From Bryobacterales bacterium (lineage in GTDB: Bacteria; Acidobacteriota; Terriglobia; Bryobacterales; UBA6623): 64,000 bases of DNA. Positions 30,754 through 55,213 of this stretch are shown piece after piece. Location: contig OY729428.2 in NCBI GenBank assembly GCA_963422375.2, forward strand, positions 2,528,001-2,592,000, read 5' to 3'. Numbering within the stretch: position 1 is the stretch's first letter; the number at the start of each line of letters is the position of its first letter. Made by a program: the position numbers and the translations under genes. Below the pieces are notes generated by a model. It was not told the DNA's origin. It searched no databases and was given only the letters and a program-made list of their open reading frames with translations.

Positions 30754-30795
30754 ATTCGTTGAATCCTGCCAGCTGTTTACTAGGCTTGCATTACA

Positions 30796-30825
30796 ATAAT
30801 AGCACGGAGGGCAAGGGATTGTCAG
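30796..30825 (-). promoter_or_regulatory. Putative sigma70 promoter of the IS1182-like transposase
   Basis: Minus strand CTGACA-N18-TATTAT with extended -10 TG, about 43 bp upstream of the ATG. Confidence 0.5.
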
Positions 30826-32090
30826 GAAACTCAAAACGCAGACAAGCCATTAAAACTACATTTACTACAGTTCTATTTCATTTATTATATCGCCCATTCA
30901 ACTCCGAAGTGCGACACGCGCCGAGCCACAAGGTGGCAGGGAGGGGAGAGGGGGGCAGCGACCGGTGGTGTCGCGGCAGTAGGCTGGTAGGTGCTGGAAG
31001 GAGCAGGGAGGCAGATGCCGAAGAGCTACACGCACGTGACGAAGGAGGAGCGCTGCCGGATCGAGACGCTGCGGGCGGCGGGCTGGGGAGCGGACAGGAT
31101 CGCCGGGCAGCCGGGCCGCAACCGGGCCACGATCTACCGGGAAGTGAGCCGCAACGGCCGACCGGCGGAGGGCGAGCGCGCGGCGAGCTACAGCTTGGGG
31201 AGCGCGCGGGAGCGCGCGGAGCGGCGGCGGCGCGCGGCGTCGTGCCGGCCGCGCCAGCTGACGTCGGCGCTGCGGGCGCGGAGCGAGGACTGCCTGCGGC
31301 AGGACTGGAGCCCGGAGCAGGAGCCCGGAGCAGGTCGCGGCGCGGCTGAAGCGGGAAGGGGCGCTGGAGATCAGCCCTGAACGGATCTACCAGCTGGTGC
31401 GCGCGGACCGGCGGCAGGGGGGCCGGCTGTACCGGCACCTGAGGCAGGGCGGCCGCAAGCGCGTGCGGCGGGTCGGCCGGACGGCGGGCCGCGGCCTGAT
31501 CCCGGGGCGCGCGGACATCGCGGAGCGCCCGGCGGAGGCGCGAGCGAAGGCGCGCGGCGGCGAGCGGGAGGCCGACACCGTGATCGGCGGGCAGCGCCGC
31601 GGGGCGCTGGTGACGCTGGTGGACCGGTTCTCTAAGTACCTGCTAGTGCAGCCGGTTAGCCGGCGCACGGCGCGGCTGGTCGGGGCGGCGATGACGGCCA
31701 TGCTCGCAGGCAGCGGGGCCGTGACGCGCACGATCACGGCCGACAACGGCAAGGAGTTCGCGGGGCGCCGGGAGGTGGCGCAGCGGCTGGGGGCGGGCTT
31801 CTGCTTCGCGCGGCCCTGCCACTCCTGGGAGCGCGGGCTGAACGAGCATGCCAACGGGCTGCTGCGGCAGTACTTCCCGCAGGGGACGGACCTGCGGCGA
31901 GTGGACCCGGCCCGGGTGCGGGAGGCGCGGGACCGCCTGAACCGGCGTCCGCGGAAGGTGCCGGGCGGGCGCACGCCGGAGGAAGTCTTCCTGGCGGAGC
32001 GGGAGCGGGTGCCGCGGGGCTGAGGCCGGGCTGGCAGCCCGCCGCGGGGACAGGGGCGCGGGGGAGCTGCGCCCGGACAGGCGCGGATTC

Positions 32091-32163
32091 GACCCTCCGG
32101 GCCTTGCTGCGGTCGCTCCGCTCCCTGCGCAAGGCCCGGAGGGTCCCCGTTCCGGAAACGGGG
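32091..32163. other. Strong hairpins in the IS30 3' non-coding region
   Basis: 17-bp perfect stem GACCCTCCGGGCCTTGC (32091-32107) / GCAAGGCCCGGAGGGTC (32129-32145), followed by a CCCCGTT..AACGGGG stem. Confidence 0.7.
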
Positions 32164-32216
32164 CACGCATTCCCGCCTGCCCGGGACGCGGCCCCCCGCT
32201 GCGGCCCGGCAGCGGC

Positions 32217-32245
32217 TTGTCCGGCGCCGCTGGATCTGCTACTAT
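32217..32245 (+). promoter_or_regulatory. Putative outward-facing sigma70 promoter near the IS30 right end
   Basis: TTGTCC-N17-TACTAT with extended -10 TGc. Confidence 0.4.
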
Positions 32246-32727
32246 GGTCCTAGTATCCTAGCCCACCGTCCCTTACCCGCGTGTCGCACTTCGGAGTTGA
32301 ATGGGCGACTTGAATCATTCTGTCACAGTATCCCTCACAAAATGCCGAGCCTCCAATTTCACTAAGCTCGCCTTTCTTAGCAATAAAGAACGGAAATATG
32401 AGCTCTATCTTTGGCTAATAAGACGGACCAAGACGATATTTGATAGCACTAGAACACAGATTGGGTACCCCAGTAAGGAGTGCTTCCAAACTTTGAACCG
32501 CACCGCTTCATAGATTCCTTCTAAGTGTCGCTGAGCGCTGGCGTCGTCCAATACATCCAAAGCACTGTGCCACTCTAGTCTGTGCTCTTCGATGATTGGC
32601 TGAGTCCAATTGTGGCGACTTAAATAGAAACTGAAGCAGAAGAAAATGACCGTTATCTTATGTGCAAATCTAAGCAATATACTGATTCGTTATCTCAAAA
32701 TGACGTAGGCAAGATAGTCAAATGAAA

Positions 32728-34248
32728 GGGAATTATATATCTGAGTGCCGCGGGAATCAAGTCGGCAAATTATCAAGCCATTATAAGATTTCATATTTCT
32801 TCCGACTTTCCGTTGACATTCTGTGGTGCTTCTTGGTAGAATAGTTCCAGTAGGGGATACCGTAAATGAAGAAATCATGTCCCGGAAAGTGGTTCCGTAA
32901 AGGCATCACATTGATCGAAGTGATCGCCATGTTCCCCGATGACGAATCCGCGGAAAAGTGGTTCGCCTCCATGCGCTGGCCGGACGGTCCCGCGTGCCCC
33001 CGCTGCCGCGGCTCCAGCGTGCAGTCCGACGCGGCCCACCCTTCGATGCCGTACCGTTGCCGCGGCTGCGGCAAGCGCTTTTCCGTGCGCGCCGGCAGCG
33101 TGATGGCCGACACCAAGCTCGGCTACCGCACCCGGGCCGTCGCCCTGTTCCTGCTGACTACCGGCATCAAGGGCGTCTCGAGCATGAAGCTGCACCGCGA
33201 CCCGGGCATCAGCCGGAAGTCGGCCTGGCACCTGGCGCACCGCATCCGCGCGTGCCGGGAGCGGGATCGGGGCCTGTTCGCCGGCCCGGTGGAGGTGGAC
33301 GAGACCTACGTCGGCGGCAAGGAACGCAACCAGCACGAGAGGAAGAAGGCCCGTGCCGGGCGCGGGCCCGTCGGCAAGACGCCCGTGGCGGGGGCGCGCG
33401 ACCGCGCCACGAACGCAGTGGCCGCGCGGCCGCTGGCGGGCACCGCCAAGGGCGACCTGCAGGGCTTCGTGCGCGCCCGCGTCGCGCCGGGGGCGCAGCT
33501 CTACTCCGACGAGGCGGCGGCCTACGCCGGCATGGAGGAGTTCCCGCACGAAGCCGTCAGGCACTCCGGCTGCGAGTACGTGCGCGGGGCGGCGCATACG
33601 AACGGCATCGAATCGTTTTGGTCCCTGTTCAAGCGCGGCCTGTACGGAACCTATCACCGGATGAGCGTCCGTCATCTCGGCCGCTACCTCACGGAGTTCG
33701 CGGGACGGCGCAACGACCGCGACTGCGACACGGCGGAACAACGGCGGAACGGATGCGGCGCATGGCGCGGGGCTTGGTCGGCCGGACGCTGACCTGCCGG
33801 CAGCTGACCGGCAAGGCCGCGGTCGCGGCCTGAGCGGCGCCCGCCGCGCTGAGCGCGGCAGCCCGCTGCGGGCGCGCGCTTCACGCTCGGTACGAGGGGC
33901 GCGCCGGATCCGGCATGCCCCGGCGCGACCCCGGTCCGGTCCGGACCGTCCATGCAGGCCGTCGAGCACCGGGGATCCGCTGTCTTCGGCCCTCGCAGGG
34001 CCTGCAAGCGGCTTGCAAGGCGTGCCCTGCCACCGCCAACCGGGTTTCACCGGGGCAACCGGGGCATGCGAGGCGGCCTCTCTAGTCCCTTCCTCGTCCA
34101 ATCCGCTGGCAGGCTCGATTCAGATACGATCCCACCCCTCCGTGCCTGCCGCGACCGCACTCGAATGACCCGAGCTCGACACCGACCTCCCTGCTCACAG
34201 CAGTTCTAGTCGGACCTGGCGTTGTCGGCACTCAGATATATAATTCCC
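32728..34248 (+). mobile_element. IS1595 family element (transposase 32866..~33833, late frameshift)
   Basis: Perfect 23-bp TIRs GGGAATTATATATCTGAGTGCCG (32728-32750) / 34226-34248; Zn ribbon CPRC..YRCRGC, VEVDETYVGG, YSDE, HTNGIESFWS, YHRMSVRHLGRYLTEF. Confidence 0.93.
32813..32842 (+). promoter_or_regulatory. sigma70 promoter of the IS1595 transposase
   Basis: TTGACA-N18-TAGAAT with extended -10 TG, 23 bp before ATG 32866. Confidence 0.65.
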
Positions 34249-37651: not shown

Positions 37652-38260
37652 GTGGAGCCGTCCGAGATCGATGCTCTGACGGCCGTCCCTAGCCGGGGCT
37701 TCTACGCCCGAGCCACCGAACAGGTGGCTCGGGATCTCCTCGGGACGGTGCTGACGCACTCCACCGCGGAGGGACTTCTAGCCGGGCGGATCGTCGAAGT
37801 GGAAGCCTACCTAGGCCGCGGCGACCCGGCCGCCCACAGCAGCGCCGGACGAACGCGTCGCACCGCCGTGATCTTCGGCCCGCCCGGTCACGCGTACGTT
37901 TACAGGATCTACGGCATGCACTGCTGCCTCAACGTCGTCGCCGAGTCGGACGAGAAGCCCGGATGCGTTCTCATCCGCGCCTTGGAGCCGCTTTGTGGAA
38001 TCGCGGCCATGCGGTCCCGTCGCGAGACGGCAAGGGCGCGACGCGACCTGGCCAGGGGGCCGGGGCGGCTGACGAAGGCCATGGCCATAGGCATGGAACT
38101 CTACGGTGCCGACCTGACACACGGGCCGCTGACGATACGGGTGCAGCGGGAACCCGCCCGGATCAAGGTCGCAACGTCGCGCAGAATCGGAATCACCAAG
38201 GCCACAGAGCTGGACCTCCGCTATTGGATCGCGAACAGCGAGTACGTCAGCCGCCCGTAG
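37652..38260 (+). CDS. mpg: DNA-3-methyladenine glycosylase (MPG/AAG family)
   Basis: VARDLLG, GRIVEVEAYLG.DPAAHS, FGPPGHAYVYRIYGMHCCLNVV, VLIRALEP, GPGRL, RIGIT. Confidence 0.92.
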   Translation: MEPSEIDALTAVPSRGFYARATEQVARDLLGTVLTHSTAEGLLAGRIVEVEAYLGRGDPAAHSSAGRTRRTAVIFGPPGHAYVYRIYGMHCCLNVVAESDEKPGCVLIRALEPLCGIAAMRSRRETARARRDLARGPGRLTKAMAIGMELYGADLTHGPLTIRVQREPARIKVATSRRIGITKATELDLRYWIANSEYVSRP

Positions 38261-38366
38261 GGCAGGACCCGGCGCGTTTGCCGGGCCCGACCAGCAAGCG
38301 CGTCGCGGCCGGCGTGCCGCGACCCCGGCCGCGCGCGAAGCGTCCGGACTCGCAGGAGCCCCCAAG

Positions 38367-40064
38367 TCATCGCTTCCAGCTCTCGGCGAGGTAGAAGCGA
38401 AGCAGGATCGGTTCCATCAGCGTGTTGAGCTGCTCGTTCTCCGTTGCCAGGTCGCTCTTGCCGAATGCCAGGGATGCCTTGAACCGGTCGAGCGTGAGGT
38501 ACTTCAGCCGCGCCCCGTCCAGGGCGAACCCGTCGAGCCCTAGAAGGCGCTCGCTCAGTTCCGCGTCCTGGGCCGCTGGCTTCCATGCCAGGACCCATCC
38601 CCAGTCCCCGAAGCTCGGGACGTTGTCATGATACGGAACCGCATCGTAGCCGGCACTCCGAATGGTCCTGAGGATGCACAGGAACGACTCCTTGGCATGG
38701 TACGGCGATGTCGACTGTACCGCCATCATTCCGCTAGGAGCGAGCAGCCGATTCACCTTGAAGTAGAATTCCCGGCTATAGAGCTTGACCAGATCGACAG
38801 AGTTCGGATCCGGGAAATCGATCAGAATCACGTCGTAGGGTCCGCTCAGGTCCTCGACGATCTTGTCTGCGTCGACTGTCAGCACATTGACAACTGCGGC
38901 TTGATCCGGGCTGTCTTCGGTATCGATTCCGAGACCCTTCGCATGCTCGAACACCGGTCTAAGGGATCGATCAGCCTCGGCCGCTTCCGGAGAAACGGCA
39001 GTTACGCGTGCGTCGCGGAACGCACCCGCGTTCAGTTCGTTCATGACGTGGTCTTCCCGAGCGAACTCGATCATTTCCGGATCAATGTCGACCAACGTGA
39101 CCTCTTCGGTTTCGCGATACTTCAGAATTTCCCGCAAGGCTAGGCCGTCGCCTCCTCCTAGAATCAAGACGCTGCGGCGGTTTCGTGCCAAGGCCATCGC
39201 AGGATGCACCAGCAGTTCATGGTAGATGTGCTCGTCTAAGCTGGAGAACTGCAGGTTGCCGTTGATAAAGAGCCGGTAGTCCGTCGGATCCAGCTTCGCA
39301 GTCATCACTACATGCTGGTACTTCGTGGTAGTAGAGGAGACAATGGGCTCGCTGTAGAACCGCTGTTCAAGCAACCGGCTCCAATCCCTGTTCTCGAAAT
39401 ATCCATAAACGAGCCCGGTTGCCGTCAAGCCGATCATCGCGATCACTGACCGACTCCTTGAAGCAACGCCGCGGAAGGAGAAATACGAATACGTGAGCAG
39501 CGCGACCGCGAAGTTCACTGCCGCTACAAGAAAACTGATCTCCGTCAACGGAAACGCCCTGAGCAAGACATACACCCACACAATAGCACCGACGAATGCA
39601 CCAATATAGTCTGTGCTGAATATCGATGCGATATTCGACTTGAGCTGCGGCAGAAACTGGCGATTGATGCGCAAGACCAAAGGAATCTCCAGTCCGATCA
39701 GGAATCCGATGGAAAGCACGAAGAAATACTGGACAAGAATGAAATGCGCGTCCATCGACGAATATGCCGCGTATACCGCGATTGGAGCGAAGCCGCCAAG
39801 CAGCGCCAGACCGGTTTCGACGAGCAGGAATTTTTCGACAAGCCGGTCGTCGCTGATCCTACGCTGCTGGATGCCCGCGAATCCCATCATGAGCATCATG
39901 AGCGATATCGTGACCGAGAATTGCTCGATGCTGTTCCCGAGGACGAACGTTCCCACAGTGCTGAGGATGCATTCGAAAACAAACCCGCTCGCTCCGGTCA
40001 GGAACATCGAGCTGGCCAGCAGAACCGTGGCGACACGGGGGCGGACTCTGGAATGCGCGGCCAC
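38367..40064 (-). CDS. speE: Membrane-anchored polyamine aminopropyltransferase (spermidine-synthase-like, about 7 N-terminal TMs)
   Basis: TM region (GNSIEQFS, IGFLIGLEIPL, DYIGAFVG) followed by LFINGNLQFSSLDEHIYHELLVHP, LILGGGDGLALREILKY, LVDIDP, IDFPDP, KLYSREFY, VPSFGDWG. Confidence 0.92.
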   Translation of the reverse strand: MAAHSRVRPRVATVLLASSMFLTGASGFVFECILSTVGTFVLGNSIEQFSVTISLMMLMMGFAGIQQRRISDDRLVEKFLLVETGLALLGGFAPIAVYAAYSSMDAHFILVQYFFVLSIGFLIGLEIPLVLRINRQFLPQLKSNIASIFSTDYIGAFVGAIVWVYVLLRAFPLTEISFLVAAVNFAVALLTYSYFSFRGVASRSRSVIAMIGLTATGLVYGYFENRDWSRLLEQRFYSEPIVSSTTTKYQHVVMTAKLDPTDYRLFINGNLQFSSLDEHIYHELLVHPAMALARNRRSVLILGGGDGLALREILKYRETEEVTLVDIDPEMIEFAREDHVMNELNAGAFRDARVTAVSPEAAEADRSLRPVFEHAKGLGIDTEDSPDQAAVVNVLTVDADKIVEDLSGPYDVILIDFPDPNSVDLVKLYSREFYFKVNRLLAPSGMMAVQSTSPYHAKESFLCILRTIRSAGYDAVPYHDNVPSFGDWGWVLAWKPAAQDAELSERLLGLDGFALDGARLKYLTLDRFKASLAFGKSDLATENEQLNTLMEPILLRFYLAESWKR

Positions 40065-40159
40065 GGGCTCTAAAACAGCGGAAGGGGGCAGCCGAGCAGT
40101 CCCACATGGGGCGCATCCGCTGCCGCCGGGCCTCCCGCGACACGTCGCGGCCGGTGCCG

Positions 40160-41818
40160 ATGGCCGCCCGACCGCTGGTTCCGACTGTCCGAGCCCATCG
40201 TATCACCAGCCGAGGCCGCACGGTACCCTATACTGGGCGCTTGCTGCCCGCGAAGACCGGGGTATCGCGTCGAGCCGTCCTGCGCTCGGCAGCTTGGGCC
40301 GGCGGGATCGGCGCCGCTGCCGGCGCCGCGTTCCTGTTCCGAAAGCCCCGGCCCATCGAGGGCGCCTATGTCGACAACAGCCACCGGATCGGTCACGCGA
40401 TTCGGGACGGGCGGGCCGGGCGGCCGGGGGCGGAGCGCGCCCGGGTCCCTGTCGTCATAGTCGGAGGCGGCATAGCGGGCCTTTCCGCCGCTTGGCGCAT
40501 GCGGAGACTCGGATTCGAGGATTTCGTCCTCCTCGAAATGGAGTCGGACGCCGGAGGGAATTCCCGCTGGGGCCAGAACGAGATCTCGCCATACCCCTGG
40601 GGCGCGCACTACGTGCCGGTGCCGGACCGACGGATTCCGCTAGTCGAGGAGCTCTTCTCGGAACTTGGCGTGCTGCGCAATGGACGCTGGGATGCCAGCC
40701 ATCTCTGCCGGGAGCCGCTCTGGCGATTGTTCATCGACGGCGAATGGAGGCCCGACATCGAATCGGACAAGTCGACAGCCCAGGCGCATCACGACCAGTT
40801 CGACCGGTTCTGGGACCGGATGGACTACTTCCGCCGCGGCCGGGAGTTCACCATCCCCGTTCGCTCCCCTCCTAGCACGGCAGCCCTCGACGCGACTTCC
40901 ATGAAGAGCTGGATGGTCCGCGAGGGCTTCCACAGCGAGCGGCTGCGCTGGTACGTGGACTACGCCTGCCGCGACGATTACGGCTGCTCCTACGGCGAGG
41001 CTTCCGCCTGGGCCGGCATCCACTACTTCGCCGCGCGGGCGGAGGACGAGGAGGACTTCCTGACCTGGCCGCAGGGGAACGGCTGGATCGTGCAACGACT
41101 GACGAGCGAGCTCTCGCCGTGGCTCCGGCACGGCGCGCCAGCGCATCGAATCAAGGCGGACGGACAGTCCCTGGAAGTCGTCACCCGGGACGTGACCTAC
41201 GTCTGCGAGGCCATCGTATTCGCCGCTCCCTCCTTCCTCGCGCCCTATCTCATGCCGGATCTTGACCGACAGCTGCTGGCACCGGGAGAATTCGCGTACT
41301 CGCCGTGGTACACCGCGAATCTCGTGATCGACTGCCTGCCCGAACAGCGCGGCGCCGGTCCGGCGTGGGAAAACGTCATCTACGGTTCCCGCGGCCTCGG
41401 GTACGTGATTGCAACTCACCAAGAGCTCAGCGCGCCCGACGCCCCCACGGTTTGGACCTACTACCGTGCGTTGGCCGGCCAGAATCCGACCGAGGCGCGC
41501 CGCTCCCTGCTCGCAACGACGTGGAGCGACCGCAAGGAGGAAGTGCTCCGCGACCTCGAGCAGGCCCATCCGGACCTACGAGGCTGCGTGGCCCGCGTGG
41601 ACATCATGCGCCTAGGGCATGCGATGATCCGACCTGTCCCGGGCTTCCTGACCTCTTCCGCGCGAGAGCGCCTGGCGTCAGCGGACGGCCCGGTCCAGTT
41701 CGCCAACTCCGACCTGAGCGGAATTTCGATCTTCGAGGAGGCGCAGTACCGGGGAGTGCGTGCCGCCGACCGGACGCTCAGCCGGCTGGGATACAGGGAC
41801 TTGGAATACGCTGGCTGA
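40160..41818 (+). CDS. FAD-dependent oxidoreductase (amine-oxidase-like), Tat-like N-terminus; start uncertain (40106-40260)
   Basis: SRRAVL, VVIVGGGIAGLSAAW, LLEME..AGGNSR, YPWGAHYVPVP, DYACRDDYG, SAWAGIHYFA, GHAMIRP, SDLSGISIFEEA. Confidence 0.88.
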   Translation: MAARPLVPTVRAHRITSRGRTVPYTGRLLPAKTGVSRRAVLRSAAWAGGIGAAAGAAFLFRKPRPIEGAYVDNSHRIGHAIRDGRAGRPGAERARVPVVIVGGGIAGLSAAWRMRRLGFEDFVLLEMESDAGGNSRWGQNEISPYPWGAHYVPVPDRRIPLVEELFSELGVLRNGRWDASHLCREPLWRLFIDGEWRPDIESDKSTAQAHHDQFDRFWDRMDYFRRGREFTIPVRSPPSTAALDATSMKSWMVREGFHSERLRWYVDYACRDDYGCSYGEASAWAGIHYFAARAEDEEDFLTWPQGNGWIVQRLTSELSPWLRHGAPAHRIKADGQSLEVVTRDVTYVCEAIVFAAPSFLAPYLMPDLDRQLLAPGEFAYSPWYTANLVIDCLPEQRGAGPAWENVIYGSRGLGYVIATHQELSAPDAPTVWTYYRALAGQNPTEARRSLLATTWSDRKEEVLRDLEQAHPDLRGCVARVDIMRLGHAMIRPVPGFLTSSARERLASADGPVQFANSDLSGISIFEEAQYRGVRAADRTLSRLGYRDLEYAG

Positions 41819-41936
41819 GTTCCCCGCCCTCGGGTCTGCGCGCCTGTCCGCTCGTCCGGAGCGATTCCGGTCCGGGAATCAAGAACGTCGCGGCGCCCGC
41901 ACACCCTGAGTCCGAGCTGCTCGACGGCCGCTCGCT

Positions 41937-42839
41937 CTATATGACCAAGGAGCCGATCATGATCGCGAGCGCGATCTGGGCGCTGACCGTTACCGAGGAC
42001 GCAGCGACGTTTCGGTCCCGCTCCACTTCGATCTTCAAGGTTGTGTGCGGGAGGAAAGCCCGGTCGATGAGCCGTTGGAACGGCACGAGTAGCGCGATCC
42101 CGACCGTGCCACTGACCGCGAAGCCGACAATCCCTTCGACCCAGCCAGTAAAGGGGCCGGACACCGCGAAGGCGAGCACGACTCCCAGCGAGATCAACGT
42201 GCCGCCGAGGATCAGGCCCGCCGCGGTGTTGCCCTGCTTGATCTCCCCGAGGCAGTCGAACGGGGTGGCCCACTCGTAGAGGAACGCGAAGACGATCAAC
42301 GCCACCTGCCCCATCGCGAAGAAGGCTACGGACGTTTCCCATCCGCCGCCTTCGCCGTGGAAGGAGCCATAGGCAACCAGTCCGGTAGCCACCAAGATTC
42401 CGAATTCCGCGAAACCCACCGCGAGATTCCCGGCATGCAGCTCGCGCGCGTTGTGGACGTGACCGAGGATCACGCGCTCGGCGAGGAGCTGGGCCACGAA
42501 GAAGAACACCAGCAGGACGGCACAGTAGACGAGGATCTCCAGTGTGCTCTCGAGCAGCGCCTCCCATCCGTCGGCCCAATGCGCCACGCCGCCGCTGACC
42601 ACGCCGGCCAGCCCGAGACCGAAACCGACACCCAAGCCGCAGCGTCGCAGCGCGATCGCCAGATTACTCTTTTCCTCGATCTGGTGGTCGACGGTCAGTT
42701 CCGGGGAGTCCTCCATGCCGCTGCGGAGCAGCGAGGATCGTATGAAGCGGTCACTGACAACCTTCGCGACCAGCAGCGCGAGGAACACCAGAAGCGTGTC
42801 CGCCACCCCTTGGATCAGCGTTTCGAGAACCTCTATCAC
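41937..42839 (-). CDS. DUF350 (YjfL-like) tandem-domain membrane protein
   Basis: About 8 TM helices with repeated [E/Q]I/L..GN.A units (QIEEKSNLAIAL, ELHAGNLAVG, EIKQGNTAAG, EVERDRNVAAS). Confidence 0.8.
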   Translation of the reverse strand: MIEVLETLIQGVADTLLVFLALLVAKVVSDRFIRSSLLRSGMEDSPELTVDHQIEEKSNLAIALRRCGLGVGFGLGLAGVVSGGVAHWADGWEALLESTLEILVYCAVLLVFFFVAQLLAERVILGHVHNARELHAGNLAVGFAEFGILVATGLVAYGSFHGEGGGWETSVAFFAMGQVALIVFAFLYEWATPFDCLGEIKQGNTAAGLILGGTLISLGVVLAFAVSGPFTGWVEGIVGFAVSGTVGIALLVPFQRLIDRAFLPHTTLKIEVERDRNVAASSVTVSAQIALAIMIGSLVI

Positions 42840-42854
42840 AGCGTGCCTCCCTGG

Positions 42855-44465
42855 CTACTTGCCGCTTGCGCCAAACGCAGTGGTGCGGCCGGCGGGGCCA
42901 GCTCCTCTCACCGTCGAGAGAGGCTGGCGGAATCCGCCCGACCGCGCCAGAGTCGTGCCCTGCATCCTAGGGGAAGTCCGCACGGTCTGGCTTCGGGTGC
43001 CCCATTTCGGGGCTGAAGTCGTGCCTCCGTAGTAAGGCCTGCTGCCGCGATACCCGCCGGACCAGTCGGCCCACTCGCTGCGGCCGTATCGAACGGGCGA
43101 CCCGAAGAGCGTGGAATAGAACAGATAAGGCCCGGCCCAGGCCCAGATCGAGCCTCCCGCCCCGTCGGACCTCCATCGCCCGTAGTGCGGGTTGCCGACG
43201 TACGCCATTCCCGGCGGAGCCGCGTGCGCGAGCTTCTCCGATTCGAACGAGCCGTACGGTTTCGACTCCACGTCCATCCCGAGGTTGTCGATGTTCGCCA
43301 GGAAGAACTCCTCGCCGACCGGCGTCCAGTCGGACTCGTTCGTGGCGCCGTTTTCCTGCACCAGATACTTGTGGAAATAGCGCGAGTCGGCTTCCTGCAC
43401 CCAATACTCCGCATCGGTGTCCCCGCTGGGCCACCGCTGCAGAGGGTCGATCTCGAGCGCAGACCACATCCGTTCGTCAGTTCCGGACCGCATGGACAGC
43501 CGGGACCCAAAGAACGACCTCCTGTAGGCTGCCAGCACGCCTTGGATGCTAACGAGATGCTCGAATACCGGTCGCTCCACGTTGGTGAAGCGATAGTCCA
43601 GCCGGTTCGGCGTCGGATAGTCCAAGGCGTCATTCCAGCTCGCGCGCTGGATCAACAGGTCATGCTCGACCTTCATGTCCATGAGCGTCCGGGAGTAGCT
43701 GCGATCGAGCTCGGCTAGCCGGGCCCCGAGTTCCGGGACTCCCTTCAAGAACGCTTCAGCGTTCTGGCGCGCTTCCCGGCAGGAGTCCGCGAACACCGCC
43801 AGATCGAACTCGCCTCCGGCCTCGCGCTTGCGGAACTCGGCTCGCGCGGCTGCCACGGCGTCCACCGAAGGAGAGCGGAGGTCACTCAGCTGCGCGGCCC
43901 GCTGGCCGATGTCGTCGGCCCGGGCCGGGTGGGCGCGCTTCACGCGCTCGACGGAGAAGGCCATCCCGGCATGGGCTTCCTCAATCTCGGATGCCGCGGC
44001 CCCGCAGTCCTCCATCACGCTAGCGACGCTGTCGGAGACGCCCTTCAGGAAGTCCCGCCGTTCGACCCAATGGCGCGAGGACCGGCGCGCACCGTCGAGC
44101 AACGGAGGAATCTTCGCGAGAGCGGCTGTGGCGGCGCCCGTCCCATCCGGCGAATCCTGCTTGATCAGGGGCAGGATCTCCACCTTGTAAACGCTCTCCG
44201 CCGACCGGAGCTTTGCCTCGGCGGCGCGGAAGTGCGACGGCCACGCCTCGCGCTCGGCGTAGGCCTCGAAGGCGCCGTACTCAGGCGTCTGGCGAAAGCT
44301 CTCGAAATCCCGCTCGGAAGACGTGACGCGACGCGCTTCGCTCTCGATGAGGGCCTGCTGCCGACCGGCCTCGTCAACCACGGACTGCGGCAGCCCGGCG
44401 CACCCCGCGAGGACAACCGCGAGGGCGGCGGACGCCGCAACGCCCTTCACCATTGGGTACCGCAT
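42855..44465 (-). CDS. Large hypothetical lipoprotein with helical N-domain and Gly/Tyr/Trp-rich C-tail
   Basis: Lipobox VVLAG-C; APPGMAYVGNPHYGRW; low-complexity tail ending in GASGK; RBS GGAGG. Confidence 0.8.
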   Translation of the reverse strand: MRYPMVKGVAASAALAVVLAGCAGLPQSVVDEAGRQQALIESEARRVTSSERDFESFRQTPEYGAFEAYAEREAWPSHFRAAEAKLRSAESVYKVEILPLIKQDSPDGTGAATAALAKIPPLLDGARRSSRHWVERRDFLKGVSDSVASVMEDCGAAASEIEEAHAGMAFSVERVKRAHPARADDIGQRAAQLSDLRSPSVDAVAAARAEFRKREAGGEFDLAVFADSCREARQNAEAFLKGVPELGARLAELDRSYSRTLMDMKVEHDLLIQRASWNDALDYPTPNRLDYRFTNVERPVFEHLVSIQGVLAAYRRSFFGSRLSMRSGTDERMWSALEIDPLQRWPSGDTDAEYWVQEADSRYFHKYLVQENGATNESDWTPVGEEFFLANIDNLGMDVESKPYGSFESEKLAHAAPPGMAYVGNPHYGRWRSDGAGGSIWAWAGPYLFYSTLFGSPVRYGRSEWADWSGGYRGSRPYYGGTTSAPKWGTRSQTVRTSPRMQGTTLARSGGFRQPLSTVRGAGPAGRTTAFGASGK

Positions 44466-44486
44466 GCTCGAACCTCCTGCGACGAT

Positions 44487-45086
44487 TCAGACTCCGGCCA
44501 GCACACCGTGCTCCGCCCGGTCTCGAGCGGACGCGGCGACTCGCACGGTAGTTGCGCTGAACACGACCAGCCCTTCCGACGGATACGAATGCGCGGTTCG
44601 CGCGATCACGCCGCGCGGCTCGGCTGCAGCCCACACCAAGGTCTCGGGCGCGCCCGCGACTCGGACGGACGCGGGAAAGCGGTAGGTCAGGCCCAGCTGC
44701 GCCCGGAAGCGCTCCGCGCGCTTGGTAAGGCCTCGGAGCTGGGCCAGTTCGACGGCGGAACGCTCCAGGTCCAGCACTCGAGCCTCGAAGCGGTACCGAA
44801 TTCCCTTGCCAGCGATGTAATCGAGAGCGGAATCGCCCGGCTGCCACAGGGCCAGAAGCCGACCCGCCGGAGGCGCCTCGCACGCAAGCAGCTCGGTCAG
44901 CGAGAGCGCCCCCGCTCGAATCTGCATCATGTGGCTCGAGCCGATCACGGAGGCCCAGATCTCAAGGTCGCCCCGCACGGCCCTCCCGTTGGACAGCACG
45001 GCCGCGTCCGGCCAATCCGGAAAGCCGCCGTAGAGTCGCAGGCGCAACTCGTGAGCGGACCGGTCCTTGTAGTGGATCGCCGTCAC
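44487..45086 (-). CDS. DUF2617-like protein
   Basis: VIGSSH, LTELLAC, YRFEA, TAHSYPSEG.VVFSAT motifs; overlaps the upstream gene by 4 bp. Confidence 0.65.
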   Translation of the reverse strand: MTAIHYKDRSAHELRLRLYGGFPDWPDAAVLSNGRAVRGDLEIWASVIGSSHMMQIRAGALSLTELLACEAPPAGRLLALWQPGDSALDYIAGKGIRYRFEARVLDLERSAVELAQLRGLTKRAERFRAQLGLTYRFPASVRVAGAPETLVWAAAEPRGVIARTAHSYPSEGLVVFSATTVRVAASARDRAEHGVLAGV

Positions 45087-45694
45087 CTGTCCCCTCCCGC
45101 GACAACCACTTCGACAGCCTTCGGGTCGAGGTAGGCACTCAGAATGACGTTGTGCTCGTAGCCCTCGTTGTCATCCCCCCACTCCTCGACACCGATATAC
45201 TGCCGCAGATCCGCGTTCTTGAACAGGTACTGGTGGAACGGCGTGCCGGAACCCTTGCCGTCTCGATAGAACGTCACCGCCGAGTCCTCGAAATAGCCGT
45301 AGGAGACGCCCCGGTAGCGAACCTCTCCCTCTTCCGCCTCCGACAGCTCCCACAGGCGCTCCTTGTTCTTCAGGCCCACCTGGCCGAAGCCGAGCTTCTC
45401 CCGCGAGACGTAGATCGAGATCTCGTCTTCCTTCTCCCATTCCAAGTACTGCGTGGACCCGTCGTTCAGGCGATAGAGCGCCAGCTCGGGCCAGCGAGCG
45501 CCTTGCCGCTCGTAGATGTTGACGCCGGTTATCTCGTAGGTCAGGCCCTCGAAGCGGAGATAGCCGCCAACGCCGACATCCTCGATCGACACCCGGAACC
45601 GCTCGCCCTCCGGGATGGGGGCGGGCATGCGCCGGATGGCGGCGAACTGCTCGCTAATGCGCGCACGCTCGGCAGGCTGCAGCAGGGCGGGCAT
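45083..45694 (-). CDS. DUF4178 domain protein
   Basis: GGYLRFEGLTYEITG, YLEWEKED, EVRYRGVSY...E..A, YIGVEEWGD...YE motifs. Confidence 0.7.
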   Translation of the reverse strand: MPALLQPAERARISEQFAAIRRMPAPIPEGERFRVSIEDVGVGGYLRFEGLTYEITGVNIYERQGARWPELALYRLNDGSTQYLEWEKEDEISIYVSREKLGFGQVGLKNKERLWELSEAEEGEVRYRGVSYGYFEDSAVTFYRDGKGSGTPFHQYLFKNADLRQYIGVEEWGDDNEGYEHNVILSAYLDPKAVEVVVAGGDR

Positions 45695-45719
45695 AGGAGT
45701 GGACGGCTAGGTTCGGGGC

Positions 45720-46901
45720 CTAGTCCGACGCCGGTGCCTCCAGTCCGCCCGGAATGTCTGCCGCGGGAAGCTCCCGAGCGGCGCGCAGCGCCTCGACCTT
45801 CGGCTCGAGGGCGGCCGACATCTGCGACAGCTCGGCGATGCCCGCGCGGGCTTTCTCGGTTCCCACCGCCCGGATCTTCTCCATCTCGTCCATCGCCCCG
45901 ACCAAGGAGTTGTAGGCGTTCTTCACGCGGTCGAGGGCGATGACGGGATTGTTCTGCATCTCCCCGATCTCCTTGGTCTGCCGCCCGATGGACGCGGCGT
46001 TGGCCTCGAGCATCGCGGCAGTGCTGTCCTGTACCTGCTTGACCGCGCTGGCTATCTGCTTCTGGTTCGCCAGAGCGGCTTGGATCGCGAGGCCCACCGT
46101 CAGGAGGCTCTGCGTCACCATGACCGTGCGATCGATTTGTTCGCAGAGCGCGTCGTTGTTCTGCAGCGTCATGTCGATCGAGGCGAAGAACTGCAGGTTG
46201 ACCTGCTCCATCGTGCGCAGATCCTGCACGCGCATCCCCACCTTGTGCTCCATCGAATTGAGCTTCTGCCGCTGAGCGGGCTCGGTCGCGGTCAGGGACT
46301 CCTCCTCGATGCGCTGCATGAGCAGCTCGCCGACGTAAGCGCTCTGCTGGACGCCGTTCTGCGCCGCGCTGACCTGGTCGTACAGCTGCTCCAGCTCGGC
46401 GTTGTCCTGGATCAGCCTGTCCTTGCCGTGTCGCAGCCCCGCCATGATCCCGTCGATCTGCGTCTGGACTGATTCGTACTTGACGGCTATTCGCTTGAGC
46501 ACCTTGCCGATGCCCGGCGTCCGGCCCAGCAGCTTGGCTATGCCGCTCGGCTGGCCCAGCACCTGCGGGTTGATCTCGTCCATCGTATGCCGCAGCTGCA
46601 CGAGCGTCCGGGGGATTTCGGCCCCCTCGCCGTCGAGCTGCGAAAGCATGGTGCCGACCCTAGTCTTGAGAAGGCCGATCTCCTTGGAAGCCCTCTGCTG
46701 CTCGCGCACGCCCATCGCGCCGACCTGGCGGCCCAGCTTGCGGTCCCCCGGGTCAGCGATGACGGCCAGCGCGAGCTGGTCGGCCTTCTCGGCCAGCTGC
46801 GCCTGCCCTTGGGCGTCGAGACCGGCGGGAGGCTTGGCGTCGAGCGGCGAGGTGGCGGGGACGCTCGCGGAGTCGGACTGGGTGGGTTCAGCGGTTGCCA
46901 T
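45720..46901 (-). CDS. telA: Toxic anion resistance protein (TelA/KlaB family)
   Basis: Long helical protein: LVQLRHTMDEINP, KYESVQTQIDGI...L..GKDRLIQDNAEL, RVQDL, NNDAL..IDRT, ALANQKQI, MLEANA. Confidence 0.85.
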   Translation of the reverse strand: MATAEPTQSDSASVPATSPLDAKPPAGLDAQGQAQLAEKADQLALAVIADPGDRKLGRQVGAMGVREQQRASKEIGLLKTRVGTMLSQLDGEGAEIPRTLVQLRHTMDEINPQVLGQPSGIAKLLGRTPGIGKVLKRIAVKYESVQTQIDGIMAGLRHGKDRLIQDNAELEQLYDQVSAAQNGVQQSAYVGELLMQRIEEESLTATEPAQRQKLNSMEHKVGMRVQDLRTMEQVNLQFFASIDMTLQNNDALCEQIDRTVMVTQSLLTVGLAIQAALANQKQIASAVKQVQDSTAAMLEANAASIGRQTKEIGEMQNNPVIALDRVKNAYNSLVGAMDEMEKIRAVGTEKARAGIAELSQMSAALEPKVEALRAARELPAADIPGGLEAPASD

Positions 46902-46910
46902 GCTTACTTG

Positions 46911-47489
46911 TTACAAACTCTGGACGAAGCGGGCGCGGAGAAAGGCCGCCTTGGCCTTGAAGTCGCCCATCTTGTCGCTCCGCACCAACTCCGCGACGTT
47001 GTCAACCTCGGCCTCGAGACCGTCCAAGCTGCGCAGGATCTCCGCGCGTGACCGTTCGCGGTCTTCGGACGAGAGGGCGAGATAGGGGTCCGTCACCTTG
47101 CGCAGGTACTCCTTGGCCATCTGGTTCACTGTCCAAGTCAGGTCGTGACCCGGGTGGCGCTCGTTGATCTCCTCGAGCAGGCCGCGGAGCGTGTCGATGA
47201 TTTGCTCCAGCCGCGCGACGACTTCCCCGGCCAGCGCCTGCTCCCGGATGCGGATATTGAGATCCACCAGACCCGCCAGCATGCGGAGCAACTCGGAGCG
47301 AGGATCCGGCTTAGACGATGCGGGCTGCGCCCTCCGCTCGCGGTAGCGCAGCACGAGGAGCGTGACCAGCGCGGCGACCGCCGCGCTCACGATGGCCACG
47401 ACGATCAGCTGCAGCAGGGCGTAGACCACGCCCAGCGCAACTAGGCCCGCAGCGATCAGCCAGATCCAGCGCTTCGCCGCTCGCGTCAT
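46911..47489 (-). CDS. Membrane-anchored helical protein, XpaC/KlaA-like partner of TelA
   Basis: Two N-terminal TM segments, then EYLRKVTDPYLAL...FKAKAAFLRARF; sits directly upstream of telA, as xpaC/klaA do. Confidence 0.62.
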   Translation of the reverse strand: MTRAAKRWIWLIAAGLVALGVVYALLQLIVVAIVSAAVAALVTLLVLRYRERRAQPASSKPDPRSELLRMLAGLVDLNIRIREQALAGEVVARLEQIIDTLRGLLEEINERHPGHDLTWTVNQMAKEYLRKVTDPYLALSSEDRERSRAEILRSLDGLEAEVDNVAELVRSDKMGDFKAKAAFLRARFVQSL

Positions 47490-51026: not shown

Positions 51027-51881
51027 ATGGGAGTCCGGATCGGGATCATCGGCGGGAGCGGCTTGTACCGCATGGACGCGCTCGAGGAGAGGCGCGAGGT
51101 ACGCGTGGACACTCCCTGGGGGGAGCCGTCCGATGCATTCGTCGTGGGGCGGGTCGCGGGCCGCGAGGCGGTCTTTCTCGCGCGCCACGGCCGGGGTCAC
51201 CACGTCATGCCCTCGAACATCAACTTCAGAGCCAACATCTACGGCCTGAAGGCGCTGGGCGCGGAGTACGTCCTCTCGTACAGCGCCGTCGGCTCCCTGC
51301 GGGAAGAGCTCGAGCCGATTCACTTCGTGCTCCCGGACCAGTTCTTCGACCGCACTCGCGGCCGGGCGTCGACCTTCTTCGACGACGGGCTCGTCGCGCA
51401 CATCACCTTCTCGCATCCGGTATGCACCACGCTCGCCGACGCTGCGGAGGCAGCCTGCCGGGCCGCGGGCGTCACGGTGCATCGCGGGGGAACCTACTGT
51501 TGCATGGAAGGGCCCGCGTTCTCGACACTCGCGGAGTCGAATCTCTACCGCTCGTGGGGGATGGACGTGATCGGGATGACGAACCTGCAGGAAGCCAAGC
51601 TCGCCCGCGAGGCGGAAATGTCCTACTGCACGGTCGCGATGGTGACCGACTACGACTGCTGGCATCCCGAGCACGATTCCGTGACAGTGGACAAAGTGAT
51701 GCAGTATCTCGCCAAGAACTCGGAGAACGCCCAGAGGGTGGCGGTCGAAGCGGTCAAGCGCATTCCCGAGACGCCCAGCCCGTACGCATCTTCCTTGAAG
51801 AACGCGATCATCTCGGACCGCGCCGCGATTCCGCAGCGCGTGCGCGAGAAGTACGCGTTGCTGGCGGGCAAGTACCTCTAG
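51027..51881 (+). CDS. mtnP: S-methyl-5'-thioadenosine phosphorylase
   Basis: IGIIGGSGLY, TPWGEPSD, FLARHGRGH, NFRANIY, AVGSLREE, MEGPAFSTLAES, IGMTNLQEAKLAREAE, VTDYDCW. Confidence 0.95.
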   Translation: MGVRIGIIGGSGLYRMDALEERREVRVDTPWGEPSDAFVVGRVAGREAVFLARHGRGHHVMPSNINFRANIYGLKALGAEYVLSYSAVGSLREELEPIHFVLPDQFFDRTRGRASTFFDDGLVAHITFSHPVCTTLADAAEAACRAAGVTVHRGGTYCCMEGPAFSTLAESNLYRSWGMDVIGMTNLQEAKLAREAEMSYCTVAMVTDYDCWHPEHDSVTVDKVMQYLAKNSENAQRVAVEAVKRIPETPSPYASSLKNAIISDRAAIPQRVREKYALLAGKYL

Positions 51882-51906
51882 GCTAGTGCCTCGCGGAAAG
51901 ACCGGG

Positions 51907-52821
51907 ATGCCCCTGCTCGTCGTCGGGTCCGTCGCGTACGACGGCATTGAGACCCCTCACGGAAAGGTTGACCGCGCCCTTGGAGGGGCGGGCTCCTACA
52001 TTGCGCTCGCCGCAAGCCATTTCACGGTCGTCCGGCTGGTAGCCGTTGTCGGCGATGATTTCGCGCCGGAGGACGAAGCGGTGCTGCGCCGACGCAACGT
52101 CGATCTTCAAGGCCTGGAACGAGCGCCGGGGCTGACCTTCTACTGGAAGGGCGTCTACCTCGAACAGATGAACCAGCGGCGCACGCTCGCGACCCACCTG
52201 AACGTATTCGCCCGATTCAGGCCCCGTTTGCCCGCGATCTATCGCGACACCTCGCACGTTCTGCTGGGCAACATCCACCCGGACCTGCAGTCCGAGGTCA
52301 TCGACCAGACCACGGCTTCCGGGTTCGTCGCGGGCGACACGATGAACTACTGGATCGAGCGGACGCCGGACGAACTGGCGCGGGCGGTCCGCCGTTGGGA
52401 TTCGATCCTCATCAACGACGAGGAGGCCCGCCAGCTCACCGAGATCACCAACCTCACGGGCGCGGCAAGGGCGGTTCGCGCGATGGGCCCGAACACGGTC
52501 GTGATCAAGCGCGGAGAGCACGGGGCGACCCTGTTCAGGGACGGCGAGTGCTTCGTCGCTCCCGGGTACCCGCTCGAGCGGGTCGTGGACCCTACCGGCG
52601 CGGGCGACGCATTCGCCGGGGGCTTCATGGGGTACATGGCGCATCGAGGGTTCCGCGAAGCTGGACAAGCGGACAGCGCGGACCTGCGTCGGGCGATGAT
52701 CTATGGATCGGTGATGGGCAGCTTCTGCTGCGAGCACTTCGGCGTCGAGGGGCTGAAGGGACTGACCCGCGAACAGATCGACAGGCGCTTCGAGGAGTTC
52801 CGCACGATGACTGCCTTCTGA
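51907..52821 (+). CDS. PfkB family (nucleoside/sugar) kinase
   Basis: LLVVGSVAYDGIETP, LGGAGSY, DTMNYWI, INDEEA, IKRGEHGA, DPTGAGDAFAGGF. Confidence 0.9.
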   Translation: MPLLVVGSVAYDGIETPHGKVDRALGGAGSYIALAASHFTVVRLVAVVGDDFAPEDEAVLRRRNVDLQGLERAPGLTFYWKGVYLEQMNQRRTLATHLNVFARFRPRLPAIYRDTSHVLLGNIHPDLQSEVIDQTTASGFVAGDTMNYWIERTPDELARAVRRWDSILINDEEARQLTEITNLTGAARAVRAMGPNTVVIKRGEHGATLFRDGECFVAPGYPLERVVDPTGAGDAFAGGFMGYMAHRGFREAGQADSADLRRAMIYGSVMGSFCCEHFGVEGLKGLTREQIDRRFEEFRTMTAF

Positions 52822-55193: not shown

Positions 55194-55213
55194 TCTTCGT
55201 TGAGGAACCGCCC

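What the first reader, a model, noticed from the sequence alone, without database searches (positions are those of the whole stretch)
38367..47489. Candidate undescribed envelope-stress/polyamine system: XpaC-like + TelA + DUF4178 + DUF2617 + lipoprotein + DUF350 + amine oxidase + membrane spermidine synthase
Seen: six minus-strand genes tightly packed (gaps 9, 25, -4, 21, 15 bp), followed by an FAD oxidoreductase and a TM-anchored aminopropyltransferase. Established knowledge (from memory): DUF350, DUF4178, membrane SpeE and amine-oxidase genes form conserved neighbourhoods of unknown function that often include PspA/SPFH scaffolds, and TelA-XpaC pairs are a separate envelope/toxic-anion stress module. 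Inference: here TelA+XpaC occupies the position PspA/flotillin usually takes. The result would be a membrane complex coupling stress sensing to aminopropylation or polyamine turnover at the envelope, possibly acting on the lipoprotein or a lipid rather than making bulk spermidine.
Basis: partly seen in the sequence, partly recalled or inferred. Interest (0 to 1): 0.85.

Follow-up and report, generated by a model that had tools for sequence, protein, structure and literature searches.

The report
TelA-headed periplasmic aminopropyl-transfer module
This is a real, widely conserved eight-gene envelope module in which a TelA protein and a small membrane partner sit where related operons carry the membrane-stress protein PspA, and it likely attaches an aminopropyl group to the tail lysine of its own lipoprotein outside the cytoplasm, with the unknown protein DUF2617 predicted to stand in for the missing S-adenosylmethionine decarboxylase.

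Summary
The eight genes are real and the gaps are exact. Pfam/NCBIfam confirm every domain call except XpaC. The oxidase lies on the + strand, so this is a six-gene operon plus a divergent oxidase/speE pair.

The core is the PspA-linked operon of Ravi et al. 2024. The TelA version was not found in print in my searches, but this scan noted it on other genomes.

The TelA-for-PspA swap holds: 53 TelA loci and 32 PspA loci, none with both, of 119. In 131 Bryobacterales genomes TelA occurs only in the 30 with this operon, and 28 of those lack PspA.

Added here:
(1) Membrane topology predicts an extracytoplasmic SpeE domain, beside a Tat-exported oxidase and the lipoprotein.
(2) The lipoprotein's terminal Gly-Lys is lost in 19 of 19 loci without SpeE (one lineage).
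(3) DUF2617 and SpeD (SAM decarboxylase) are nearly complementary in distribution, and DUF2617's invariant residues mirror SpeD's catalytic motifs split over two halves. The profile score is not significant.

All function is inferred. Verdict: new variant of a known kind.

The parts
46911..47489 (-). g1: 192-aa protein, two N-terminal hydrophobic segments plus a helical domain; constant partner upstream of telA; XpaC-like in place and shape only
   Evidence: 50 of 53 TelA loci carry it; XpaC tests fail or are inconclusive; weak PspM hit E 1.5e-6, below cut-off
45720..46901 (-). TelA-family protein, 393 aa; predicted all-helical with a long helical hairpin (131-204/208-277) and one hydrophobic stretch (260-278)
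   Evidence: PF05816 186 bits; model pLDDT 65.9 (87); no significant fold match; hydropathy
45083..45694 (-). DUF4178 protein, 203 aa, no membrane segment; follows TelA here and PspA in the sister type
   Evidence: PF13785 44 bits; gene order
44487..45086 (-). DUF2617 protein, 199 aa; candidate single-chain pyruvoyl SAM decarboxylase replacing SpeD (inferred)
   Evidence: PF10936 60 bits; invariant G49 S51 H52 E65 C69 T149 H166 Y168, near-invariant P169 E171 (115); distribution against SpeD; profile match not significant
42855..44465 (-). Lipoprotein, 536 aa: lipobox Cys22, helical stalk to about residue 254, beta-rich domain, disordered basic tail ending Gly-Lys; candidate acceptor
   Evidence: no Pfam family (7); alignment; model pLDDT 86.9 (139); no fold match; tail survey
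41937..42839 (-). Tandem DUF350 (YjfL-type) membrane protein, 300 aa, eight hydrophobic segments
   Evidence: PF03994 122 bits, two stretches; hydropathy
40106..41818 (+). Flavin amine-oxidase-family protein, inverted relative to the operon, with a twin-arginine (Tat) motif; true start probably about 40-50 codons inside the ORF (inferred from homologues)
   Evidence: PF01593, PF13450 (7); strict Tat pattern in 15 of 17 homologues, RR in the other 2 (98); homologue alignments start at residues 49-54 in 3 of 4 relatives
38367..40064 (-). Seven-transmembrane aminopropyltransferase (SpeE-like), 565 aa; catalytic domain predicted to lie outside the cytoplasm
   Evidence: PRK03612 568 bits; catalytic residues invariant in 65 of 65 (98); K+R alternation in loops; only Spermine_synth gene found in the genome

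Best explanation
The locus is a TelA-headed version of the DUF4178/lipoprotein/DUF350/membrane-SpeE envelope module, and it likely works as a membrane-spanning modification cycle in which the predicted outward-facing SpeE domain would aminopropylate the terminal lysine of the module's lipoprotein, DUF2617 would supply decarboxylated SAM in place of SpeD, the Tat-signal oxidase would oxidise or remove the amine, and TelA with g1 would provide the inner scaffold that PspA provides in sister operons. SHOWN: genes, domains, order, conservation, the TelA/PspA either-or pattern, the conserved SpeE active-site residues, the Tat motif, the Gly-Lys tail tracking SpeE, and the near-complementary distribution of DUF2617 and SpeD. 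INFERRED: topology, acceptor, donor supply (the six-helix membrane part of SpeE or DUF350 would have to pass the donor across the membrane), the oxidase's role, the scaffold role, and any link to envelope stress.
For: Either-or: TelA in 53 loci, PspA in 32, both in 0 of 119. In 131 order-level genomes the 30 with the window-type lipoprotein are exactly the 30 with TelA, and 28 of them have no PspA match. All 22 genomes with another lipoprotein type have PspA. One genus holds both types in different genomes. The order 140-aa protein>PspA>DUF4178>long lipoprotein is colinear with g1>TelA>DUF4178>DUF2617>long lipoprotein. Breadth: 42 of 42 metagenome loci with enough upstream DNA carry g1 and TelA, with TelA down to 22% identity. 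A complete copy with speD lies on an Alteromonas mediterranea plasmid, found through TelA. Topology: mean K+R per loop over 65 SpeE sequences is 1.8, 0.05, 2.6, 0.02, 2.3, 0.95, 2.5, giving N-in, seven helices, C-out. Tail: GK in 76 of 82 TelA-type ORFs, 15 of 15 short-type and 67 of 68 database homologues, against 0 of 19 in loci without SpeE; 16 of those 18 genomes lack the orthologous SpeE. Donor: no AdoMet_dc in this genome or in 61 of 62 family genomes, while DUF2617 is in 33 of 33 family genomes with the operon. All 9 DUF2617-negative operon genomes elsewhere in the phylum have an AdoMet_dc match. speD directly follows DUF4178 in L073, the slot DUF2617 holds here. Among the 14 control genomes DUF2617 rings only in C. 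glutamicum and H. volcanii, which have Spermine_synth but no AdoMet_dc.
Against: No function was measured. TelA shows no sequence or fold relationship to PspA (hhalign 0.3%; Foldseek PspA row E 0.41), so 'same slot' need not mean 'same job'. DUF2617 against SpeD is not significant by profile (1-3%), finds no SAM decarboxylase in the PDB, and lacks the Glu before the putative cleavage Ser. Exceptions: G496 has membrane SpeE but neither SpeD nor DUF2617; G044 has both; G435 has DUF2617 and a weak AdoMet_dc match; the L. lactis control rings for Spermine_synth with neither. Only 3 of 119 loci contain speD, so locus-level exclusivity is weak. The Gly-Lys loss is confined to one family and may be one event; 2 of those genomes keep a membrane SpeE elsewhere. 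The oxidase is missing from most TelA-type loci, and speE is detached in L029 and pushed 1.4-6 kb away in L001 and L002. The metagenome sample was picked with the lipoprotein profile, and kin are not independent.
Confidence: 0.45

Rival explanations
1. The same module, but the acceptor is a small amine or a lipid/cell-surface polymer; the basic Gly-Lys tail is only an anchoring or recognition element.
For: SpeE keeps the full residue set of polyamine aminopropyltransferases. A flavin amine oxidase and, in many loci, a K+ channel travel with it. Ravi et al. propose polyamine monitoring or aminopropylation of other substrates.
Against: The terminal Lys is nearly invariant with SpeE and is replaced by Arg/His where SpeE is lost, although the tail stays basic. 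The predicted extracytoplasmic active site is a poor place for bulk spermidine synthesis.
Confidence: 0.3
2. g1-TelA is an independent antimicrobial-peptide/toxic-anion resistance pair that is co-regulated with the module but does not do PspA's job; exclusivity reflects lineage history.
For: Canonical TelA occurs in unrelated settings. Listeria telA is tied to nisin and tellurite tolerance (PMC12791056 passage). There is no TelA-PspA homology. Operon TelAs form one side of the tree with only 34% support.
Against: In the order survey TelA never occurs without the operon (30 of 30). It holds the same slot across lineages 22-40% identical and in the rearranged L073 and L147. No locus of 119 keeps both heads.
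Confidence: 0.15
3. The SpeE-like domain uses SAM itself (methyl or aminocarboxypropyl transfer) and needs no decarboxylase; DUF2617 has an unrelated role.
For: No AdoMet_dc in 29 of 30 TelA-type genomes. G496 has neither enzyme. The DUF2617-SpeD profile score is not significant.
Against: The GGGDG aspartate, recalled as the residue that excludes SAM's carboxyl group, is invariant in 65 of 65. speD is embedded in the module in L073, L119 and L147.
Confidence: 0.1

Closest known systems
CesT/Tir-PspA operon with 7TM-spermine-synthase, YjfL/DUF350, Ctha_1186 lipoprotein and DUF4178 (Ravi et al. 2024, PMC11237479, 'second major group'; Shewanella SO_3765 region)
   Same: DUF4178, lipoprotein, 8TM DUF350 and 7TM-SpeE. 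The window lipoprotein's C-terminal domain matches the short lipoproteins of CesT-PspA loci.
   Different: g1-TelA replaces CesT-PspA; DUF2617 and an inverted Tat oxidase are present. TelA and XpaC are not mentioned in that paper's main text (TelA searched) or its one held supplement. Identity of this lipoprotein with the Ctha_1186 domain was not tested directly.
Dyad-less DUF2617 variant, M. tuberculosis Rv2597-Rv2601 (TM+DUF4178, DUF2617, DUF4247, YjfL, TM-SpeE; same paper)
   Same: The order DUF4178>DUF2617>exported protein>DUF350>SpeE.
   Different: No TelA head there, and DUF4247 instead of the 536-aa lipoprotein. The paper calls DUF2617 a predicted beta-sandwich enzyme of no assigned activity.
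XpaC-TelA/YaaN pair of Firmicutes (Listeria lmo1966-lmo1967; Enterococcus xpaC-telA)
   Same: A small membrane protein directly upstream of a TelA-family gene.
   Different: The partner fails the XpaC HMM. The window TelA is 23-29% identical to the TelA matches in plasmid records and is embedded in an aminopropyltransferase module.
Class 1b S-adenosylmethionine decarboxylase (SpeD, PF02675; T. maritima 1TLU/3IWB)
   Same: SpeD invariants E-S-H, H-T-x-P-E and C (cleavage after residue 62 shown by chain lengths) have ordered counterparts in DUF2617: S51-H52...E65...C69 in the first half and T149...H166-x-Y168-P169-x-E171 in the second. This split recalls class 2 enzymes (recalled, not tested).
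   Different: No significant profile match, no Glu before the Ser, altered spacing, and no fold test was available.

Membership tests
Ravi et al. CesT-PspA/7TM-SpeE operon | 7TM-fused spermine/spermidine-synthase domain | tested here: met
Ravi et al. CesT-PspA/7TM-SpeE operon | 8TM DUF350, DUF4178 and a lipoprotein | tested here: met
   lipoprotein C-domain homologous to those of CesT-PspA loci
Ravi et al. CesT-PspA/7TM-SpeE operon | CesT/Tir-PspA dyad | tested here: not met
   no PspA match in G000, 96% complete; no CesT or PspA in any of 53 TelA loci
Ravi et al. CesT-PspA/7TM-SpeE operon | all genes co-directional in one operon | tested here: not met
   oxidase on + strand separates speE from the six-gene unit; co-directional in most distant loci
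TelA (PF05816) | Pfam score over the cut-off | tested here: met
   186 bits against 30
TelA (PF05816) | tellurite or antimicrobial-peptide resistance phenotype | not testable with these tools
   needs bench work
XpaC (PF10112) | Pfam score over the cut-off | tested here: not met
XpaC (PF10112) | remote homology by profile or embedding | tested here: inconclusive
   hhalign 3.8% against at most 1.7% for reversed and 20 shuffled controls; global alignment colinear; Atlas lead 0.83 to a PF10112 cluster (39)
PspA/IM30 (ESCRT-III-like) | sequence or fold homology of TelA to PspA | tested here: not met
   hhalign 0.3% (93); Foldseek has no match at E<=0.001, on a model of only pLDDT 66
Polyamine aminopropyltransferase | Q, DE-x-x-YHE, GGGD, D-x-D and D-x-x-D residues | tested here: met
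   invariant in 65 of 65; their roles are recalled
Polyamine aminopropyltransferase | a SpeD donor enzyme in the genome | tested here: not met
   the class 2 search had no positive control
Pyruvoyl SAM decarboxylase (for DUF2617) | profile homology to PF02675 | tested here: not met
Pyruvoyl SAM decarboxylase (for DUF2617) | ordered S-H...C and H-x-aromatic-P-E catalytic constellation | tested here: inconclusive
   present, split over two halves, Glu before Ser missing; the C-half motif scored 17.9 against at most 15.6 for 37 controls, while the N-half did not beat its controls
Pyruvoyl SAM decarboxylase (for DUF2617) | alpha-beta-beta-alpha sandwich fold and self-cleavage | not tested

The most novel reading that the evidence does not exclude
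An extracytoplasmic protein-lysine aminopropylation cycle (writer: 7TM-SpeE; substrate: the lipoprotein's C-terminal Lys; eraser: Tat-exported flavin oxidase), fed by DUF2617 as an unrecognised single-chain class of pyruvoyl SAM decarboxylase, and organised by TelA as a non-homologous stand-in for the ESCRT-III-like PspA. This would also explain the 'orphan' spermidine synthases of Actinobacteria and haloarchaea that have no SpeD.
Probability: 0.3. Interest if true: 0.88.

Novelty: new variant of a known kind. Interest (0 to 1): 0.64.

Why it matters
Three long-standing unknowns become cheap to test. First, what TelA does: the swap with PspA predicts a membrane-scaffold role and gives a complementation assay. 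Second, what membrane-fused 'spermidine synthases' modify: the prediction is one named lysine and a +57 Da shift. Third, how genomes with SpeE but no SpeD obtain the donor: DUF2617 should self-cleave at a named serine and complement E. coli speD. That last prediction applies to every DUF2617 carrier, far beyond this locus. A cultured marine bacterium (Alteromonas mediterranea CP48) carries the TelA version on a plasmid.

Tried and rejected
- 'Long lipoprotein goes only with TelA': rejected. 18 genomes of the sister family have a long lipoprotein and PspA, adjacent in the loci fetched.
- g1 as XpaC or PspM: not shown.
- TelA as a PspA or ClyA-type fold: only non-significant Foldseek rows. The wide structural search could not be queued.
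- Complex prediction of TelA with g1: no verdict, used neither for nor against.
- Lipoprotein: no solved relative by sequence (coiled-coil noise) or by fold; no phage copy.
- The 140-aa gene before PspA in the sister type has no Pfam hit; its alignment to CesT is colinear but not significant.
- Promoter/terminator scan at chance level.
- Expression: no RNA holder listed. Three runs of one sample, only guessed to be RNA, have short contigs within 41977-47477 and none on the oxidase, speE or flanks; this is not evidence of transcription or co-transcription.
- MTA phosphorylase and pfkB 3.5 kb upstream were not found in the four nearest loci, so they are not counted as parts.
- The whole-library profile search with DUF2617 never finished.
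- Li et al. 2019 (BCJ20190561) could not be read; it is known to me only as reference 89 of Ravi et al. and from recall, and could mention this variant.
- Literature blanks: PspA+TelA+DUF350 0 papers; two searches returned only Ravi et al. and unrelated papers; TelA+XpaC 3 listed; DUF2617 3 listed; empty. Subscription papers, the bioRxiv supplements and the authors' web tables were not seen.
Full report
OBSERVATION. The window is G000:C2:2528001-2592000. The nearest named loci are Bryobacterales MAGs. The six minus-strand ORFs and the gaps 9, 25, -4, 21 and 15 bp are as stated. Pfam confirms TelA, DUF4178, DUF2617, tandem DUF350, Amino_oxidase and Spermine_synth over their cut-offs, and NCBIfam assigns PRK03612. 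Two corrections follow. The oxidase is on the + strand, convergent on DUF350 and divergent from speE. The same inversion occurs in 8 related loci (L001-L004, L027, L028, L030, L031), while in L058, L067, L074 and L082 the oxidase is co-directional upstream of g1. The first gene is not demonstrably XpaC: there is no PF10112 hit in the gene or the genome, 1 of 34 homologues hits weakly, the profile-profile probability is 3.8% with a colinear global alignment, and the Atlas gives a lead of 0.83.

CONSERVATION. A lipoprotein profile (68 of 92 homologues) retrieved 121 metagenome matches, of which the tool kept 80. Of these 80, all 42 with at least 3.2 kb upstream contain g1 and TelA and none contains PspA. 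All 50 with at least 2.2 kb downstream contain DUF350, and 48 contain SpeE. The remaining loci are too short to score. TelA identities fall to 22%, and database names include Desulfobacterales. A TelA query independently found a whole copy with speD on an Alteromonas mediterranea plasmid; its g1 and lipoprotein match my profiles at E 6e-12 and 5e-60. A quick tree (the careful search did not finish) puts 23 operon TelAs on one side against 12 others, with only 34% support.

TelA VERSUS PspA. In 401 phylum genomes the lipoprotein profile matched 19, 4 of them marginally. Of the 14 fetched, 13 have a short lipoprotein (about 190-250 aa); 12 of these show CesT_Tir_1>PspA and one contig is too short. 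In 131 order-level genomes, 52 have the lipoprotein. Thirty have the window type, and exactly these 30 have TelA, about 3 kb away. Twenty-eight of the 30 have no PspA match anywhere; G435 and G527 have one on other contigs. All 22 others have PspA. One genus contains both types (G511 against G439 and G501). In the sister family the order is 140-aa protein>PspA>DUF4178>long lipoprotein, colinear with g1>TelA>DUF4178>DUF2617>long lipoprotein. Across 119 loci, TelA occurs in 53, PspA in 32, and both in none. These genomes are kin, so the counts overstate independence. TelA is not a detectable PspA homologue. Its moderate-confidence model is a long helical hairpin with one hydrophobic stretch and has no significant fold match. 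The scaffold role is therefore an inference from position.

THE ENZYMES. The SpeE residues Q272, D277, E278, Y281, H282, E283, GGGD306, D326, D416 and D419 are invariant in 65 of 65 sequences; their catalytic roles are recalled. Mean K+R counts alternate 1.8/0.05/2.6/0.02/2.3/0.95/2.5 over the N-terminus and six loops, on helix boundaries I set by eye. This predicts an N-in, seven-helix protein with the catalytic domain outside. The oxidase has a twin-arginine motif in the window and in 15 of 17 homologues by a strict pattern. The lipoprotein model (pLDDT 86.9) shows a helical stalk, a beta-rich domain and a disordered tail, with no fold match. All three would share the extracytoplasmic side.

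THE ACCEPTOR. Earlier scan notes pointed to the lipoprotein's Gly-Lys tail, so I tested it. GK ends 76 of 82 closed TelA-type ORFs. One more ends in K, and 5 do not and look broken or truncated. GK also ends 15 of 15 short-type ORFs, the Alteromonas copy and 67 of 68 database homologues. It ends 0 of 19 lipoproteins from loci without SpeE; 18 end in Arg or His and one in His-Lys. Sixteen of those 18 genomes have no orthologous membrane SpeE, though 4 have weak hits to longer proteins and 2 have an orthologue elsewhere. This natural control is one lineage.

THE DONOR PROBLEM. G000 has one Spermine_synth gene and no AdoMet_dc, and 61 of 62 other family genomes also lack AdoMet_dc. DUF2617 is present in 33 of 33 family genomes with the operon and in 0 of 17 sister-family genomes. 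Phylum-wide it is in 5 of 401, all operon carriers. Among the 13 short-type phylum genomes, all 9 without DUF2617 have an AdoMet_dc match (7 strong, 2 weak with intact E-S-H). Of the 4 with DUF2617, 2 have none, 1 has a degenerate match and 1 a weak intact one. In L073 speD follows DUF4178, the slot DUF2617 has here. In the tool's 14 control genomes DUF2617 rings only in C. glutamicum and H. volcanii, which have Spermine_synth but no AdoMet_dc; L. lactis has Spermine_synth with neither. DUF2617's conserved residues (S51-H52, E65, C69; T149, H166, Y168, P169, E171) mirror SpeD's E-S-H...H-T-x-P-E...C (cleavage after residue 62 in the T. maritima enzyme), split over two halves as I recall for class 2 enzymes. 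Against this, the profile probability is 1-3% and only the C-half motif beat its controls, there is no PDB hit, the Glu before the Ser is missing, and G496 has membrane SpeE with neither enzyme. I put about even odds on DUF2617 being a SpeD replacement. I found it neither in the three papers listed for DUF2617 (passages read in two, listing only for the third) nor in the scan's notes.

MECHANISM. Most likely, DUF2617 makes decarboxylated SAM in the cytoplasm, the membrane part of SpeE or DUF350 passes it out, the SpeE domain aminopropylates the lipoprotein's last lysine, the exported oxidase oxidises or removes the group, and TelA-g1 with DUF4178 organises the complex from inside. Every step of this chain is inferred. 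The rivals are a small-amine or lipid acceptor (0.3), an independent TelA resistance pair (0.15) and SAM-direct chemistry (0.1).

RELATION TO KNOWN SYSTEMS. Of Ravi et al. 2024 (PMC11237479) I read section 19 whole, other passages by term search, and term hits in one supplement. It describes the CesT-PspA/DUF4178/lipoprotein/DUF350/7TM-SpeE operon, a dyad-less DUF2617 variant, and a band-7 variant with SAM decarboxylase and polyamine oxidase. TelA does not occur in its main text or held supplement. For TelA-XpaC I saw one passage of PMC12791056 and the listing of PMC6811118. No paper joining TelA with this module turned up. Li et al. 2019 was not available. The scan has noted the TelA-headed operon on several other genomes; those notes are not independent evidence.

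VERDICT. The module is real and conserved, and is a new variant of a described but functionally unsolved kind. Interest is 0.64, carried mainly by the testable acceptor and DUF2617 predictions. The novel case has probability 0.3 and interest 0.88 if true.

Noticed in passing
L147 (NZ_CP018025.1 198364-206248); also NZ_CP018028.1: Alteromonas mediterranea 600-kb plasmids carry the TelA module; in L147 the order is speE>speD>g1>telA>DUF4178>lipoprotein>DUF350, so the module can be plasmid-borne.
   Followed up: partly
L107, L156-L173: A reduced sister type in another Bryobacterales family: 140-aa protein without Pfam hit>PspA>DUF4178>long lipoprotein (DUF350 in 3 loci, no SpeE), with tails ending in Arg/His.
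   Followed up: yes
L111-L113, L115, L116, L174, L175: CesT-PspA loci also end in an inverted oxidase+speE pair; L113 and L116 have two membrane SpeE genes, and DUF2617 often lies just beyond.
   Followed up: partly
L026, L028-L031, L046, L052, L061, L075, L081, L108-L119: A two-helix K+ channel with an RCK domain accompanies many loci of both types but is absent beside the window's operon.
   Followed up: no
L058:4491-5366: A Band-7/SPFH gene precedes oxidase>g1>telA on the same strand in this locus, so TelA and SPFH are not strictly exclusive.
   Followed up: no
L197, L198, L199, L201: Weak, divergent SpeD-like proteins in some Acidobacteria; L199 lacks the E-S-H cleavage motif.
   Followed up: partly
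window 51027-52821 (+): A PNP_UDP_1 phosphorylase (MTA-phosphorylase-like, label recalled) and a PfkB kinase 3.5 kb from the module; MTA is the by-product of aminopropyl transfer, but the linkage was not seen in four relatives.
   Followed up: partly
window 29700-33800 and 54200-56750: Several transposase-like ORFs, some broken (judged from the translations only), flank the region.
   Followed up: no
window 38001-40000: The speE bin is 59% GC against 64-69% in neighbouring bins.
   Followed up: no
L145:2258-3340, L120:2584-3660, L153, L154: Other TelA genes sit beside predicted exported binding proteins or vWA/OmpA/ABC genes, a further TelA context.
   Followed up: no
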